NCBI RefSeq assembly: GCF_013167455.1
Contig: NZ_CP038328.1
Reading direction: 5' to 3' (one strand)
Length of the DNA stretch: 64,000 bases
From: Escherichia coli O157:H7
GTDB lineage: Bacteria; Pseudomonadota; Gammaproteobacteria; Enterobacterales; Enterobacteriaceae
Shown: in pieces, positions 688 through 38,960 of the stretch
How positions within the stretch are numbered: the first letter of the stretch is position 1
Layout: each line of letters opens with the position of its first letter
Notes under the pieces: model-generated
What the model was told of the DNA's origin: nothing
Seen by the model: the letters and a program-made list of their open reading frames with translations, nothing else
The model's database searches: none
Made by a program: the position numbers and the translations under genes

Positions 688-838
688 AACTTTGCCTCAG
701 GCATTAGAAATAGCGCGTTATTGTACACGGATTAATCGCACTACAAAACAGGATCACAAACATCCTCCGCAAACAAGTATTGCAGAGTCCCTTTGTGATC
801 GCTTTCACGGAGCATAAAAAGGGTTATCCAAAGGTCAT

Positions 839-887
839 TGCACCAATATGGTGCTTAATGTTTCCATTGAAGCACTATATTGGTGCA
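839..887 (+). promoter_or_regulatory. Two NtrC (NRI) enhancer sites upstream of glnA
   Basis: tgcaccaatatggtgct (839-855) and gcactatattggtgca (872-887) match the TGCACC-N5-GGTGCA NtrC dyad. Confidence 0.8.
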
Positions 888-960: not shown

Positions 961-976
961 TGGCACAGTTTTCGCT
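961..976 (+). promoter_or_regulatory. sigma54 promoter glnAp2
   Basis: TGGCAC-N5-TCGCT (-24 GG / -12 GC spacing) about 85 bp upstream of glnA start. Confidence 0.8.
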
Positions 977-1059: not shown

Positions 1060-2469
1060 ATGTCCGCTGAACACGTACTGACGATGCTGAACGAGCACGA
1101 AGTGAAGTTTGTTGATTTGCGCTTCACCGATACCAAAGGTAAAGAACAGCACGTCACTATCCCTGCTCATCAGGTGAATGCTGAATTCTTCGAAGAAGGC
1201 AAAATGTTTGACGGCTCCTCGATTGGCGGCTGGAAAGGCATTAACGAATCCGACATGGTGCTGATGCCAGACGCATCCACCGCAGTGATTGACCCGTTCT
1301 TCGCCGACTCCACCCTGATTATCCGTTGCGACATCCTTGAACCTGGCACCCTGCAAGGCTATGACCGTGACCCGCGCTCTATTGCGAAGCGCGCCGAAGA
1401 TTACCTGCGTTCCACTGGCATTGCCGACACCGTACTGTTCGGGCCAGAACCTGAATTCTTCCTGTTCGATGACATCCGTTTCGGATCATCTATCTCCGGT
1501 TCCCACGTTGCTATCGACGATATCGAAGGCGCATGGAACTCCTCCACCCAATACGAAGGTGGTAACAAAGGTCACCGTCCGGCAGTGAAAGGCGGTTACT
1601 TCCCGGTTCCGCCGGTAGACTCTGCTCAGGATATTCGTTCTGAAATGTGTCTGGTGATGGAACAGATGGGTCTGGTGGTTGAAGCCCATCACCACGAAGT
1701 AGCGACTGCTGGTCAGAACGAAGTGGCTACCCGCTTCAATACCATGACCAAAAAAGCTGACGAAATTCAGATCTACAAATATGTTGTGCACAACGTAGCG
1801 CACCGCTTCGGTAAAACCGCGACCTTTATGCCAAAACCGATGTTCGGTGATAACGGCTCCGGTATGCACTGCCACATGTCGCTGTCTAAAAACGGCGTTA
1901 ACCTGTTCGCAGGCGACAAATACGCAGGTCTGTCTGAGCAGGCGCTGTACTACATTGGCGGCGTAATCAAACACGCTAAAGCGATTAACGCCCTGGCAAA
2001 CCCGACCACCAACTCTTATAAGCGTCTGGTCCCGGGCTACGAAGCTCCGGTAATGCTGGCTTACTCTGCACGCAACCGTTCTGCGTCTATCCGTATTCCG
2101 GTGGTTTCTTCTCCGAAAGCACGTCGTATCGAAGTACGTTTCCCGGATCCGGCGGCTAACCCGTACCTGTGCTTTGCTGCCCTGCTGATGGCCGGTCTTG
2201 ATGGCATCAAGAACAAGATCCATCCGGGCGAAGCCATGGACAAAAACCTGTATGACCTGCCGCCGGAAGAAGCGAAAGAGATCCCACAGGTTGCAGGCTC
2301 TCTGGAAGAAGCACTGAACGAGCTGGATCTGGACCGCGAGTTCCTGAAAGCCGGTGGCGTGTTCACGGATGAAGCGATCGATGCGTACATCGCTCTGCGT
2401 CGCGAAGAAGATGACCGCGTGCGTATGACTCCGCATCCGGTAGAGTTTGAGCTGTACTACAGCGTCTAA
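1060..2469 (+). CDS. glnA: Glutamine synthetase
   Basis: 469-aa [35 protein letters not shown]... recognised as GlnA. Confidence 0.97.
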
Positions 2470-2530
2470 TAGTTGAAGTTGTACTACCCGGCGCAACAAC
2501 GCCGGGATTTAGTTGCCGTGGAAACTTTCA

Positions 2531-2556
2531 GCCCATCTCTGCATGGGCTTTTTTCT
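2531..2556 (+). terminator. Rho-independent terminator after glnA
   Basis: gcccat-ctctgc-atgggc stem-loop followed by TTTTTT. Confidence 0.7.
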
Positions 2557-2599
2557 CCGTCAATTCTCTGATGCTTCGCGCTTTTTATCCGTAAAAAGC

Positions 2600-2621
2600 T
2601 ATAATGCACTAAAATGGTGCA
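2600..2621 (+). promoter_or_regulatory. glnL promoter -10 (TATAAT 2600-2605) overlapped by NtrC operator
   Basis: tataatgcactaaaatggtgca: TATAAT hexamer overlapping a TGCAC-N7-GGTGCA dyad immediately upstream of glnL. Confidence 0.7.
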
Positions 2622-2642
2622 ACCTGTTCAGGAGACTGCTTT

Positions 2643-3692
2643 ATGGCAACAGGCACGCAGCCCGATGCTGGGCAGATCCTCAACTCGCTGATTAACAGTA
2701 TTTTGTTAATCGATGACAACCTGGCGATCCATTACGCCAACCCCGCCGCGCAACAACTGCTCGCCCAAAGCTCCCGCAAATTGTTTGGTACGCCGTTACC
2801 GGAACTGTTGAGCTACTTCTCATTAAATATTGAGCTGATGCAAGAAAGTCTGGAGGCGGGGCAAGGTTTTACCGATAACGAAGTGACGCTGGTCATCGAC
2901 GGTCGCTCGCATATCCTTTCTGTGACGGCCCAGCGTATGCCGGACGGCATGATCCTGCTGGAGATGGCGCCGATGGATAACCAGCGCCGCTTAAGCCAGG
3001 AACAGCTACAACATGCTCAACAAGTTGCTGCCCGTGATTTAGTGCGTGGCCTGGCACATGAGATTAAAAATCCGCTTGGCGGTTTACGTGGCGCGGCGCA
3101 GCTACTCAGCAAAGCATTACCTGACCCGTCACTGCTGGAATATACCAAAGTGATTATCGAACAGGCGGACCGGCTGCGAAATCTGGTCGACCGTCTGTTG
3201 GGGCCGCAGCTGCCCGGTACGCGCGTTACCGAAAGTATTCACAAAGTAGCTGAACGCGTGGTAACGCTGGTGTCGATGGAACTGCCGGACAACGTGCGGT
3301 TGATTCGTGATTACGATCCCAGCCTGCCGGAACTGGCGCACGACCCGGATCAAATTGAACAGGTCTTGCTGAATATTGTGCGCAATGCGCTACAGGCGCT
3401 GGGGCCGGAAGGCGGTGAAATCATTCTGCGTACCCGCACCGCGTTTCAACTGACCTTACACGGCGAACGCTATCGGCTGGCGGCGCGGATTGATGTGGAA
3501 GATAACGGGCCAGGCATTCCGCCTCATTTGCAGGATACGCTGTTTTACCCGATGGTCAGCGGCCGCGAAGGTGGCACCGGGCTTGGCTTATCCATCGCTC
3601 GTAATTTGATTGATCAGCATTCAGGCAAAATTGAATTTACCAGTTGGCCAGGGCATACCGAGTTCTCGGTTTACCTGCCTATCAGGAAATAA
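2643..3692 (+). CDS. glnL: Nitrogen regulation sensor histidine kinase NtrB (NRII)
   Basis: 349-aa ORF with H-box ([11 protein letters not shown]) and ATP-binding G-box motifs. Confidence 0.96.
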
Positions 3693-5224: not shown

Positions 5225-5335
5225 ATGCTGGAATCAATAATTAATCTGGTATCGAGTGGCGCAGTTGACAGCCACACACCGCAAACTGCTGTTGCTGCCG
5301 TGCTGTGTGCCGCGATGATTGGGCTGTTTAGTTGA
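5225..5335 (+). CDS. yshB: Small protein YshB (36 aa)
   Basis: ggagag SD then ATG; MLESIINLVSSGAVDSHTPQTAVAAVLCAAMIGLFS, matches my recollection of the small protein between glnG and hemN. Confidence 0.6.
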   Translation: MLESIINLVSSGAVDSHTPQTAVAAVLCAAMIGLFS

Positions 5336-5369
5336 GTTTCAGATTGCTGATGAAGTGCTCTTTGTTCAT

Positions 5370-5457
5370 GCCAGATGCTGCGTGAACGCCTTATCCGGCC
5401 TACAAAAGCAATATTTTCAACAGGTTTTGTAGGCCTGATAAGCGTAGCGCATCAGGC
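5370..5457. repeat. REP/BIME palindromic elements
   Basis: gccagatgctgcgtgaacgccttatccggcctac and gtaggcctgataagcgtagcgcatcaggc, classic REP consensus. Confidence 0.75.
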
Positions 5458-7593: not shown

Positions 7594-7660
7594 AATGGTT
7601 CGTCTTTTAGCCGTTTTATTCAGTATAGATTTGCGGCGGAATCTAACAGAAAGCAAGCAA

Positions 7661-7904
7661 AGAAAAAAGGCGACAGATTACTCTGTCGCCTTTTTTCCTG
7701 ACTCATAACCCTTAACGGGTCTTACAATCCTTGCAGGCCGCCAACACACCCTGTTTTTCCATTAGCCGGAACAATCCGTGTTGATTCCATTTCCGTTTAA
7801 TTACGTCTCCGGACGTTTGTCTTCCTGACAATCCTCTGTCTTCGCCTCCTGGCGCTCCTGACCCTCATCCTGAGTCATTGTTCCTGTTAGCGTCCTCGCT
7901 CTAT
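7661..7904 (-). ncRNA. csrC: CsrC small RNA (CsrA-sequestering)
   Basis: Minus-strand sequence atagagcgaggacgctaacaggaacaatgactcaggatgagggtcaggagcg... with many GGA motifs, ending in ggcgacag/ctgtcgcc hairpin plus T-run; lies between yihI and engB. Confidence 0.85.
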
Positions 7905-8932: not shown

Positions 8933-9041
8933 TAAAAAACGCCCCAGTCATTACTGACTGGGGCGGCTAAAATATTCAGCCAAATCCGATTACGTGAAGT
9001 AAAAGGTCTGAAAGATAGAACATCTTACCTCTGTACCCTAC
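8933..9041 (-). ncRNA. spf: Spot 42 small RNA
   Basis: Minus strand reads GTAGGGTACAGAGGTAAGATGTTCTATCTTTCAGACCTTTTACTTCACGTAATCGGATTTGGCTGAATATTTTAGCCGCCCCAGTCAGTAATGACTGGGGCGTTTTTTA. Confidence 0.9.
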
Positions 9042-9188
9042 GCGACTAACTTTACTCTTTTTTGTTCAGTTCAGAAAGCACTTTTTGTAATTTTTTTTCA
9101 GTTGTTGCATAGGAATTTCTAATAGCCATCACAAAACGTGACAGCTTATGTTGCTTACTTACGAAAAAAGGGCATGTTCAGGCGAATC

Positions 9189-18134: not shown

Positions 18135-18254
18135 ATGCCTGGCAGTTCCCTACTCTCGCATGGGGAGACCCCACACTACCATCGGCGCTACGGCGTTTCA
18201 CTTCTGAGTTCGGCATGGGGTCAGGTGGGACCACCGCGCTAAGGCCGCCAGGCA
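18135..18254 (-). rRNA. rrfA: 5S ribosomal RNA
   Basis: 120-nt match to E. coli 5S (TGCCTGGCGGC...GGAACTGCCAGGCAT) on minus strand. Confidence 0.95.
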
Positions 18255-18346
18255 AATTCTGTTTTATCAGACCGCTTCTGCGTTCTGATTTAATCTGTAT
18301 CAGGCCGAAAATCTTCTCTCATCCGCCAAAACACCTTCGGCGTTGT

Positions 18347-21251
<2,905 letters not shown>

Positions 21252-21434
21252 TCACAACCCGAAGATGTTTCTTTCGATTCATCATCGTGTTGCGAAAATT
21301 TGAGAGACTCACGAACAACTCTCGTTGTTCAGTGTTTCAATTTTCAGCTTGATCCAGATTTTTAAAGAGCAAAACTTCGCAGTGAACCTTTGCAGGTACA
21401 CTCTGAAGTATTTTTTATTTAATCACTACAGAGA

Positions 21435-21510
21435 TGGTGGAGCTATGCGGGATCGAACCGCAGACCTCCTGCGTGCAAAGCAGGCGCTCTCCCAGCTGAG
21501 CTATAGCCCC
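21435..21510 (-). tRNA. alaT: tRNA-Ala (UGC)
   Basis: Reverse complement equals GGGGCTATAGCTCAGCTGGGAGAGCGCCTGCTTTGCACGCAGGAGGTCTGCGGTTCGATCCCGCATAGCTCCACCA. Confidence 0.97.
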
Positions 21511-21552
21511 ATAACATGTAGTTAAAACCTCTTCAAATTTGCCGTGCAAATT

Positions 21553-21629
<77 letters not shown>

Positions 21630-21697
21630 GTAGAGGTTTTACTGCTCATTTTCATCAGACAATCTGTGTGAGCACTGCAAAGTACAGTTCTTTAAGG

Positions 21698-23239
<1,542 letters not shown>

Positions 23240-29991: not shown

Positions 29992-31164
<1,173 letters not shown>

Positions 31165-31290: not shown

Positions 31291-31324
31291 AATGCCACTG
31301 AATAAAGTTTTAGTTGCCGTTCTT

Positions 31325-31350
31325 CCCGCCTGTCAGGGGCGGGTTTTTTT
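31325..31350 (+). terminator. Rho-independent terminator of fadBA
   Basis: cccgcc-tgtcagg-ggcggg hairpin plus TTTTTTT. Confidence 0.75.

Positions 31351-36717: not shown

Positions 36718-38960
<2,243 letters not shown>

What the first reader, a model, noticed from the sequence alone, without database searches (positions are those of the whole stretch)
2470..2560. glnA 3' UTR with strong terminator, candidate 3'UTR-derived sRNA
The roughly 90-nt segment between the glnA stop and the terminator hairpin (2531-2556) is the region from which a 3'UTR-derived sRNA (GlnZ, as I recall it) has been reported in enterobacteria; the structure here is compatible with that.
Basis: established knowledge. Interest (0 to 1): 0.25.

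Follow-up and report, generated by a model that had tools for sequence, protein, structure and literature searches.

The report
Known GlnZ/EsrF small RNA of glnA
The 85 bases after the glutamine synthetase gene are the already published small regulatory RNA GlnZ (called EsrF in E. coli O157:H7), which lowers carbon-metabolism and glutamine-transport genes when nitrogen is scarce; this is a correct but ordinary call.

Summary
glnA ends at 2469. The next 85 nt (2470-2554) are identical at every base to the E. coli O157:H7 EDL933 interval mapped by 5'/3' RACE as the sRNA EsrF. Two 2022 studies describe the same RNA as the short "O157-type / Class I" form of GlnZ. Its layout is a 5' tail, a GC hairpin (2487-2506), the linker AUUUAG, the conserved seed UUGCCGUGGAAA (2513-2524), and a terminator stem-loop (2530-2549) with a U tract.

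New checks made here:
- **Conservation:** in a sample anchored only on the glnA stop codon, the seed is present in 94 of 99 Enterobacterales loci and in 0 of 19 loci from other gammaproteobacteria. It is more conserved (94% pairwise identity) than glnA codon positions 1+2 (89%).
- **Family test:** a covariance model built without Escherichia hits 2507-2554 at 66 bits.
- **Targets:** the seed pairs with sites at sucA, glnP and aceE that are identical in at least 5,400 of 5,426 E. coli genomes.
- **Frequency:** the short form is the majority E. coli allele (2,857 genomes; K-12 type 1,571; O111 type 993).

The rival EsrF account (own promoter, flhB activation) gets no support from the sequence. 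The feature is already known and of low interest. One by-product: Rfam's Ysr49 is the Yersinia GlnZ orthologue.

The parts
961..976 (+). sigma-54 type promoter-like site TGGCACAGTTTTCGCT, at the position expected for glnAp2. This is the NtrC-activated promoter that the literature says drives glnA and therefore GlnZ.
   Evidence: Pattern search, one mismatch to TGGCAC-N5-TTGCW. The number of such matches in the window is no higher than chance. The assignment rests on its position 84 nt upstream of the glnA ATG and on established knowledge of glnAp2.
1060..2469 (+). glnA coding sequence (glutamine synthetase, 469 aa), the parental mRNA.
   Evidence: ORF list. RefSeq annotation of identical DNA gives WP_001271717.1, glutamate--ammonia ligase.
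2444..2448 (+). RNase E-like motif AG|UUU (consensus RN|WUU) inside the end of the glnA CDS. It is a candidate for the upstream cleavage site and would give a 109-nt precursor.
   Evidence: Motif scan. Miyakoshi et al. report an RNase E site just upstream of the glnA stop that is conserved with Salmonella. Equating that site with this motif is my inference.
2470..2554 (+). Full-length 85-nt GlnZ (O157 type / Class I), also published as EsrF. It is the whole glnA 3'UTR.
   Evidence: 85/85 identity to the RACE-mapped EDL933 interval. The length matches the published 85-nt O157-type 3'UTR.
2487..2506 (+). Hairpin 1: CCCGGCG-CAACAA-CGCCGGG, seven G-C pairs. It is specific to this variant and is shared with Enterobacter species. 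The O111-type insertion interrupts the sequence at its 3' edge.
   Evidence: Terminator scan and folds, pairing probability about 1.0. A similar hairpin lies at the same place in L015, L042 and L093. Alignment with the K-12 and O111 types.
2504..2512 (+). GGGAUUUAG, the motif Jia et al. proposed for pairing with the flhB 5'UTR. Its first three bases form part of the 3' arm of hairpin 1.
   Evidence: Motif position, published motif. Opening energy is 9.3 kcal/mol, against 3.8 for the seed.
2505..2510 (+). RNase E-like motifs GG|AUU and GA|UUU directly after hairpin 1. Cleavage here would release a 47-48-nt RNA that is exactly the conserved core.
   Evidence: Motif scan. That cleavage occurs here is inferred. 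'Processed species' of O157 GlnZ are reported without sizes in the text I could read.
2507..2554 (+). Conserved GlnZ core: U-rich leader, seed, spacer, terminator and U tract.
   Evidence: Covariance model R1, built from 55 distinct non-Escherichia sequences, scores 66.1 bits, E about 3e-18, full length 1-48. It is the only strong hit in 64 kb.
2513..2524 (+). Seed UUGCCGUGGAAA, which base-pairs with the sucA, glnP and aceE leaders.
   Evidence: Exact match to the published seed. Present with at most 1 mismatch in 94/99 Enterobacterales glnA 3'UTRs. Predicted duplexes centre on it.
2530..2549 (+). Rho-independent terminator stem-loop AGCCCAU-CUCUGC-AUGGGCU.
   Evidence: Terminator scan and folds. 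The stem is paired in 99.3% of cells across 55 sequences, and 4 of 8 pairs never vary.
2550..2555 (+). U tract, the 3' end of the RNA (RACE end at 2554). It is the expected binding site for the proximal face of Hfq.
   Evidence: Read from the sequence; 3' RACE end; invariant T run in the alignment. Hfq binding is taken from the literature and was not tested here.

Best explanation
[quoted passage not shown] This window carries the 85-nt O157-type / Class I allele, which was also published as EsrF. The proposed mechanism runs as follows.

Under nitrogen limitation, NtrC activates the sigma-54 promoter glnAp2 and transcription ends at the terminator at 2530-2554 (literature). RNase E, with Hfq, releases the 3'UTR from the mRNA (literature, shown for K-12 and Salmonella). 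For this allele, cleavage near the stop codon gives the 85-nt form. I infer a further cut after hairpin 1 that gives a core of about 48 nt.

The largely single-stranded seed UUGCCGUGGAAA (2513-2524) then pairs with three leaders. These are the sucA leader (about -44 to -33), the glnP ribosome-binding region (about -22 to -11) and the pdhR-aceE intergenic leader (about -105 to -91). Pairing represses 2-oxoglutarate dehydrogenase, the glutamine ABC transporter and pyruvate dehydrogenase E1, so that 2-oxoglutarate is kept for nitrogen assimilation.

Pairing geometry was computed here. Repression by this very allele, with compensatory mutants, comes from the literature. The same hairpin also serves as the glnA terminator ahead of glnLG.
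For: **Identity.** Window 2470-2554 matches 85/85 bases of the RACE-mapped EDL933 RNA. Window 1-25000 is 100% identical to O157:H7 EDL933 and Sakai.

**Published experiments on this allele.**
- O157 GlnZ was detected by northern blot and was induced on glutamine or low nitrogen (PMC9731577; Walling et al.).
- EsrF overexpression represses glnP, sucA and aceE, with seed mutants and a glnP compensatory mutant.
- The RNA is absent in an hfq deletion and is covered by Hfq cross-link reads.

**Conservation tested here, without using the seed as bait.** The scan was anchored on the GlnA C-terminus.
- 94/99 Enterobacterales loci carry the seed with at most 1 mismatch within 420 nt of the stop, against 0/19 outgroup loci. 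The chance expectation is about 0.001 per locus.
- Seed-to-U-tract length is fixed at 40-43 nt, while stop-to-seed distance varies from 8 to 320 nt.
- Pairwise identity of the seed block is 0.936. For glnA it is 0.58 at codon position 3 and 0.89 at positions 1+2.
- Model R1 scores 66.1 bits at 2507-2554.

**Pairing.** The linker-plus-seed segment forms duplexes of 10-13 bp (-18 to -21 kcal/mol) with the three leaders. Only 2-13 of 300 shuffled sequences did as well. The three sites are 100% identical in at least 5,400 of 5,426 E. coli genomes, including an O157:H7 strain with this allele.

**Accessibility.** Opening the seed costs 3.8 kcal/mol, and the centroid structure leaves it unpaired.
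Against: - Those steps rest on the papers.
- The MFE structure pairs the first bases of the seed (UUG) with the 5' tail, and minimum P(unpaired) in the seed is 0.06. The full 85-nt form may therefore be less active than a processed core.
- No perfect RN|WUU motif lies at the RACE-mapped 5' end 2469/2470. RNase E dependence was shown for K-12 and Salmonella constructs, not for this allele.
- Jia et al. (PMC8092317) report TEX resistance, independence from the glnA promoter and higher levels in high ammonium. These results contradict the processing and low-nitrogen model and have not been reconciled experimentally.
- The duplex statistics are only modestly significant for sucA and glnP (9 and 13 of 300 shuffles).
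Confidence: 0.93

Rival explanations
1. The EsrF model (Jia et al. 2021). The 85-nt RNA is transcribed independently from its own promoter inside the end of glnA. NtrC represses it, so it accumulates in high ammonium. It uses GGGAUUUAG (2504-2512) to pair with the flhB 5'UTR, relieving Rho termination and raising motility and virulence in EHEC.
For: PMC8092317 reports the following:
- RACE ends identical to 2470 and 2554.
- Gel shifts with flhB RNA are lost when the motif is mutated.
- The deletion mutant shows motility and colonisation phenotypes.

The motif is present in the window at 2504-2512.
Against: - No sigma-70-like promoter was found in 2200-2900. The best hexamer pair that could start transcription near 2470 matches only 7 of 12 positions.
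- Three of the nine motif bases are locked in the seven-G-C-pair hairpin 1. Opening costs 9.3 kcal/mol for the motif and 13.5 for the full 18-nt interaction region, against 3.8 for the seed.
- The motif is missing from the K-12 and O111 alleles and is not part of the core conserved across the order.
- Two independent groups found this RNA induced by low nitrogen in EDL933 and O157, opposite to the EsrF claim.
- An additional allele-specific flhB interaction is not formally excluded.
Confidence: 0.1
2. The segment is only the glnA terminator and mRNA-stabilising 3'UTR. It sets read-through into glnLG, and the RNA fragment has no trans-acting role.
For: A strong intrinsic terminator is present. 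Deleting the terminator lowers GlnA slightly in K-12. RefSeq annotates no RNA gene here in O157 genomes.
Against: A terminator alone does not explain an unpaired 12-mer upstream of it that is conserved above the level of glnA codon positions 1+2 across an entire order. That 12-mer also sits at a fixed distance from the hairpin while the rest of the UTR is freely replaced. Published seed and compensatory mutants show trans regulation. The terminator role is real, but it adds to the sRNA role rather than replacing it.
Confidence: 0.03

Closest known systems
GlnZ of E. coli K-12 (b4836, 194-197 nt; Walling et al. 2022; Miyakoshi et al. 2022)
   Same: Same locus (glnA 3'UTR), identical seed, identical terminator hairpin and downstream DNA, and the same validated targets sucA, glnP and aceE.
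   Different: In K-12 the seed lies 10 nt after the stop codon, and a REP-derived long stem-loop of more than 100 nt separates it from the terminator (Class III). Here the seed lies 43 nt after the stop and 5 nt before the terminator, preceded by a short GC hairpin (Class I). K-12 GlnZ is partly an RNase III substrate because of the REP stem. This allele has no such stem.
EsrF of EHEC O157:H7 EDL933 (Jia et al. 2021)
   Same: It is the same molecule: 85/85 identity and the same ends.
   Different: Only the interpretation differs. EsrF was described as independently transcribed, induced by high ammonium and an activator of flhB. The GlnZ papers describe it as processed from glnA mRNA, induced by low nitrogen and a repressor of sucA, glnP and aceE.
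Salmonella enterica GlnZ (185-nt 3'UTR, Class II)
   Same: The seed lies directly upstream of the conserved terminator. It is released by RNase E with Hfq and represses sucA and glnP.
   Different: There is a much longer unrelated segment between the stop and the seed. An extra G next to the seed removes aceE regulation and adds deoD.
Rfam RF02766 Ysr49 (Yersinia sRNA 49)
   Same: In Yersinia similis, Ysr49 covers exactly the glnA 3'UTR. It starts at the first base after the stop and ends at the U tract, and it contains the same seed and terminator. It is therefore the Yersinia orthologue of GlnZ.
   Different: The window scores 34.1 bits against a gathering score of 95. Only the 3' core aligns, because the 5' 80 nt of the Yersinia UTR are unrelated. 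Other Yersinia species with short UTRs (L048, L075) also fall below threshold.
Other Hfq-dependent 3'UTR-derived sRNAs released by RNase E (CpxQ, SdhX, NarS, SroC)
   Same: The same design: the parental mRNA's terminator doubles as the Hfq-binding module, a conserved seed lies upstream of it, and the RNA regulates the same pathway as the encoded protein.
   Different: Different loci, seeds and regulons. There is no sequence relationship.

Membership tests
GlnZ (glnA 3'UTR-derived sRNA of Enterobacterales) | Lies directly downstream of the glnA stop codon on the same strand and ends at the glnA terminator | tested here: met
   glnA stops at 2469 and the RNA spans 2470-2554 (+). glnL follows at 2643.
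GlnZ (glnA 3'UTR-derived sRNA of Enterobacterales) | Conserved seed 5'-UUGCCGUGGAAA-3' | tested here: met
   Exact match at 2513-2524. The published seed is quoted.
GlnZ (glnA 3'UTR-derived sRNA of Enterobacterales) | Conserved Rho-independent terminator (GCCCAU...AUGGGC plus U tract) at a fixed distance from the seed in Class I/II forms | tested here: met
   Stem 2530-2549 and U tract 2550-2554. The seed-to-U-tract length of 42 nt falls in the family range of 40-43. Model R1 scores 66.1 bits.
GlnZ (glnA 3'UTR-derived sRNA of Enterobacterales) | Seed complementary to the sucA, glnP and (in E. coli) aceE leaders | tested here: met
   Contiguous duplexes of 10-13 bp centred on the seed. The target sites are identical in an O157:H7 genome and in at least 5,400 E. 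coli genomes.
GlnZ (glnA 3'UTR-derived sRNA of Enterobacterales) | Stable RNA species induced by nitrogen limitation, dependent on Hfq and released by RNase E | not testable with these tools
   Taken from the literature only. Northern blots of O157 and EDL933, loss in an hfq deletion, and RNase E dependence shown for the K-12 and Salmonella constructs.
EsrF as defined by Jia et al. 2021 | Sequence and ends of the 85-nt RNA of EDL933 | tested here: met
   85/85 identity to 4939965-4940049 of NZ_CP008957.1.
EsrF as defined by Jia et al. 2021 | Own promoter at -35 to -10 upstream of position 2470 | tested here: not met
   No promoter-like site in the scan. The best match is 7/12. A sequence scan cannot exclude a weak or non-canonical promoter.
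EsrF as defined by Jia et al. 2021 | Accessible GGGAUUUAG motif for pairing with flhB | tested here: inconclusive
   The motif is present at 2504-2512, but its GGG sits in the hairpin 1 stem and opening costs 9.3 kcal/mol. The flhB leader itself was not examined.
Rfam RF02766 Ysr49 | Score at or above the curated gathering threshold (95 bits) | tested here: not met
   34.1 bits, E = 1e-4. The Y. similis orthologue scores 151.4 bits. The window is homologous in the 3' core but is not a member by Rfam's threshold.

The most novel reading that the evidence does not exclude
The three E. coli alleles share one core but have different 5' or internal domains, and they may not be functionally equivalent. 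The O157-type 5' domain (tail plus hairpin 1, 2470-2512) partly masks the seed in the full-length RNA. It carries the proposed flhB-pairing motif. It is followed by an RNase E-like site that would free the 48-nt core. This domain could therefore give this allele extra targets such as flhB and motility, or a processing-gated activity that the K-12 allele lacks. That would reconcile the EsrF and GlnZ reports.
Probability: 0.12. Interest if true: 0.4.

Novelty: already known. Interest (0 to 1): 0.1.

Why it matters
GlnZ links nitrogen status to carbon flux. When glutamine synthetase is induced, its own mRNA sheds a regulator that lowers 2-oxoglutarate dehydrogenase, pyruvate dehydrogenase and glutamine import. 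For this window the value is mostly in annotation. RefSeq records of O157:H7 carry no RNA gene here, although the RNA has been mapped and tested in exactly this strain background.

First, the short allele is the majority form in E. coli (53% of complete genomes). Second, the 48-nt core is conserved across Enterobacterales more tightly than the glnA coding sequence. Third, Rfam's Ysr49 is the Yersinia orthologue, so a single GlnZ family model could replace it. None of this changes current understanding.

Tried and rejected
- **Rfam, permissive search of 2200-2900.** There is no GlnZ family. The best hit, Ysr49, was below threshold. It turned out to be a real but partial homologue. The other hits (anti-hemB, mmgR, Trp leader and so on) only match the generic terminator and were dismissed.
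- **Rfam at gathering threshold on six other genera.** Ysr49 was not detected in Y. artesiana, Y. nurmii, Serratia, Pectobacterium, Pantoea or Enterobacter, so the model is too narrow to serve as a GlnZ family.
- **Full-length RNAduplex of GlnZ against the target leaders.** This was not informative: 14-93 of 300 shuffles did as well, because intramolecular structure is ignored. Only the single-stranded linker-plus-seed analysis was used.
- **Covariation in the terminator stem.** Only 2 cells show double changes and 4 of 8 pairs never vary. The stem is supported by 99.3% pairing, not by covariation.
- **Mechanical ORFs over the region** (2513-2695 +, 60 aa; 2484-2609 -, 41 aa). Both span the terminator and the glnL promoter. 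I did not pursue them as coding, given the identification as a known sRNA.
- **Sigma-54 pattern count in the window.** It is not above chance, so the glnAp2 assignment rests on position and prior knowledge.
- **Second R1 hit at 31308-31350.** It lies in the fadA 3'UTR and I consider it probably chance.

Full report
**What is at the coordinates**

The window carries the glnALG operon on the + strand. glnA is 1060-2469, glnL is 2643-3692 and glnG follows. The glnA stop codon is TAA at 2467-2469.

In the 173-nt gap before glnL, the terminator scan finds two hairpins:
- CCCGGCG-CAACAA-CGCCGGG at 2487-2506, with seven G-C pairs.
- AGCCCAU-CUCUGC-AUGGGCU at 2530-2549, followed by UUUUU(U)C.

Folding 2470-2555 gives -28.3 kcal/mol with z = -2.3. 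Folding 2440-2560 gives z = -2.9. Both hairpins appear in the MFE and in the centroid structure.

The terminator stem is 2530-2549 and its U tail runs to 2554/5. The distance from the stop to the hairpin is 60 nt. The 85-90 nt figure is the whole 3'UTR.

**Identity**

Window 2400-2700 is 100% identical to many E. coli genomes, including O157:H7. Window 1-25000 is 100% identical to O157:H7 EDL933, Sakai and relatives.

In EDL933 (NZ_CP008957.1) glnA occupies 4940050-4941459 on the minus strand. Jia et al. mapped the sRNA EsrF by 5' and 3' RACE to T4939965 and T4940049. They reported it as "exactly 85 nt", beginning at the nucleotide next to the glnA stop (PMC8092317). The reverse complement of that interval equals window 2470-2554 at 85 of 85 positions.

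Miyakoshi et al. describe "the 85 nt 3'UTR (O157 type)" as one of three E. coli glnA 3'UTR types. They detected the corresponding GlnZ RNAs in O157 by northern blot (PMC9731577). Walling et al. classify EsrF as the "Class I" GlnZ (bioRxiv 10.1101/2022.04.01.486790). MG1655 annotates glnZ (b4836) at the homologous place. The O157 RefSeq records annotate nothing there.

**Anatomy**

| Window coordinates | Element |
|---|---|
| 2470-2486 | 5' tail |
| 2487-2506 | hairpin 1 |
| 2507-2512 | linker AUUUAG |
| 2513-2524 | seed UUGCCGUGGAAA, an exact match to the published seed |
| 2525-2529 | spacer CUUUC |
| 2530-2549 | terminator stem-loop |
| 2550-2554 | U tail |

Alignment with a K-12 and an O111-type genome shows identical glnA ends, identical terminators and identical DNA down to glnL. 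In K-12 the seed sits 10 nt after the stop and a REP-like segment separates it from the terminator. The O111 type has 145 extra nt inserted just after hairpin 1.

**Is the UTR conserved beyond the terminator?**

To avoid circularity I sampled glnA 3' ends with a degenerate pattern for the GlnA C-terminus ([11 protein letters not shown]-stop). Results:
- Of 99 Enterobacterales or unlabelled loci with enough downstream sequence, 82 have the exact 12-mer and 12 more have one mismatch within 420 nt of the stop.
- None of 19 loci from Cellvibrio, Idiomarina, Marinomonas, Agarivorans and similar genera comes closer than 2 mismatches.
- The chance expectation is about 0.001 per locus.
- The stop-to-seed distance ranges from 8 to 320 nt, while the seed-to-U-tract length stays at 40-43 nt.
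- Mean pairwise identity is 0.936 for the 16-nt seed block and 0.856 for the terminator block. Over the preceding 150 nt of coding sequence it is 0.58 at glnA third codon positions and 0.89 at positions 1+2.

The 55 distinct non-Escherichia cores align with 90% mean column identity. Their stem is paired in 99.3% of cells, although half of its pairs never vary, so covariation support is thin. A covariance model built from them finds window 2507-2554 at 66.1 bits (E about 3e-18, full length). The next hit scores 19.9 bits. The refutation condition is clearly not met.

**Mechanism**

Published work shows that GlnZ is induced under nitrogen limitation through NtrC. It depends on Hfq, is released from glnA mRNA by RNase E, and represses sucA, glnP and (in E. 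coli) aceE through the seed, with compensatory mutants. For this allele specifically:
- EsrF and O157 GlnZ are induced by nitrogen deprivation or growth on glutamine in EDL933 and O157.
- Plasmid-borne EsrF represses glnP-mCherry, SucA-SPA and the aceE leader. Seed mutants do not, and for glnP the compensatory mutant restores repression.

What I computed:
- With only the segment outside the two hairpins (2507-2529), the best duplexes are centred on the seed:

| Target | Paired bases | Position relative to the start codon | Energy (kcal/mol) |
|---|---|---|---|
| sucA | 10 | about -44 to -33 | -20.4 |
| glnP | 10 | -22 to -11, over the ribosome-binding region | -18.4 |
| aceE (pdhR-aceE leader) | 13 | -105 to -91 | -20.8 |

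  These were matched or beaten by 9, 13 and 2 of 300 shuffles respectively.
- The three 41-42-nt target windows are 100% identical in 5,400-5,402 of 5,426 complete E. coli genomes. These include O157:H7 PV15-279, which has this exact 3'UTR.
- Opening the seed costs 3.8 kcal/mol.
- A sigma-54-type site, TGGCACAGTTTTCGCT, lies at 961-976 where glnAp2 is expected. The count of such sites in the window is not above chance.
- RNase E-like RN|WUU motifs occur at 2444-2448, inside the CDS, which would give a 109-nt product. They also occur at 2505-2510, right after hairpin 1, which would give a 47-48-nt product equal to the conserved core. That these motifs are used is my inference.

**The conflicting EsrF account**

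Jia et al. concluded that the RNA has its own promoter, is repressed by NtrC, rises in high ammonium, and activates flhB through GGGAUUUAG. The sequence does not help this view:
- No sigma-70-like promoter passes the scan, and the best candidate near 2470 matches 7 of 12 positions.
- The motif (2504-2512) has its GGG inside the seven-G-C-pair stem. It costs 9.3 kcal/mol to open, or 13.5 for the 18-nt interaction.
- The motif is absent from the K-12 and O111 alleles and from the conserved core.
- Both later studies explicitly disagree with the expression claim.

I give the EsrF account about 10% as the main function. I leave open an additional allele-specific interaction, which I rate at 12% in the novel case.

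**Population picture**

| Allele | Query | Genomes (of 5,426) | Share |
|---|---|---|---|
| O157 type (this window) | 60-nt probe contiguous only in the short allele | 2,857 | 53% |
| K-12 type | 197-nt 3'UTR | 1,571 | 29% |
| O111 type | 230-nt 3'UTR | 993 | 18% |

Together these account for 5,421 genomes. The window's allele is therefore the commonest form. Hairpin 1 and its spacing recur in Enterobacter (L015, L042, L093). This agrees with Walling's proposal that the short class is ancestral.

**Comparison and verdict**

The feature is GlnZ. All sequence-level defining features were tested and met. Expression, Hfq binding and RNase E dependence rest on published experiments done in the same strain background.

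It is not a member of Rfam Ysr49 by threshold (34 bits against 95). Ysr49 is nevertheless the Yersinia orthologue. In Y. similis it spans 5303-5426 and begins one base after the glnA stop at 5302. No paper in the searchable library links the two names.

Novelty: already known. Interest: low. The reader's call was accurate and its self-assigned interest of 0.25 was, if anything, generous.

Noticed in passing
L095 5303-5426 (Yersinia similis); window 2450-2554: Rfam RF02766 'Ysr49' covers exactly the glnA 3'UTR in Yersinia similis (151 bits; the glnA stop ends at 5302). It contains the GlnZ seed and terminator, so it is the Yersinia GlnZ orthologue under another name. Rfam has no GlnZ family. 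The Ysr49 model misses short-UTR Yersinia species and all other genera tested. No paper in the library links the two names.
   Followed up: yes
window 31308-31350 (+): The GlnZ-core model gives a weak second hit (19.9 bits, E about 4e-4) in the fadA 3'UTR (fadA = window 30001-31164). The layout is a REP element, then UUUUAGUUGCCGU, then a GC hairpin and a U tract. It shares 13 nt with the 5' end of K-12 GlnZ, including the first 7 nt of the seed. This is probably chance, but it has the layout of a 3'UTR sRNA.
   Followed up: partly
window 2600-2621 (+): The glnL promoter region has a perfect TATAAT at 2600-2605, overlapped by an NtrC-type palindrome TGCACTAAAATGGTGCA at 2605-2621. This fits the known NtrC autorepression of glnLp. 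The promoter scan did not call it, which shows how strict that scan is.
   Followed up: no
window 769-876 (-): Rfam ES222 sRNA (133 bits) lies on the opposite strand between typA and glnA, just upstream of the glnA regulatory region.
   Followed up: no
window 7651-7904 (-), 8933-9051 (-), 18137-23239 (-), 38355-38606 (-): Other Rfam matches at gathering threshold: CsrC, Spot 42, a complete rrn operon (5S, 23S, two tRNAs, 16S, plus StyR-44 in the spacer) and the 'Erse' small RNA.
   Followed up: no
window 2470-2554 versus RefSeq records NZ_CP008957.1, NC_002695.2, NZ_AP018488.1: None of the O157:H7 RefSeq annotations carries an ncRNA feature for GlnZ/EsrF. MG1655 has glnZ (b4836). This is an annotation gap for the allele present in 53% of complete E. 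coli genomes.
   Followed up: yes
window 2530-2549 versus alignment A2: The terminator stem sequence GCCCAUC/GAUGGGC is almost invariant across Enterobacterales, usually with a UUCG or UCCG loop. E. coli alone has the loop CUCUGC with a 6-nt loop geometry. This level of sequence conservation (not just conserved pairing) is more than termination alone requires.
   Followed up: partly
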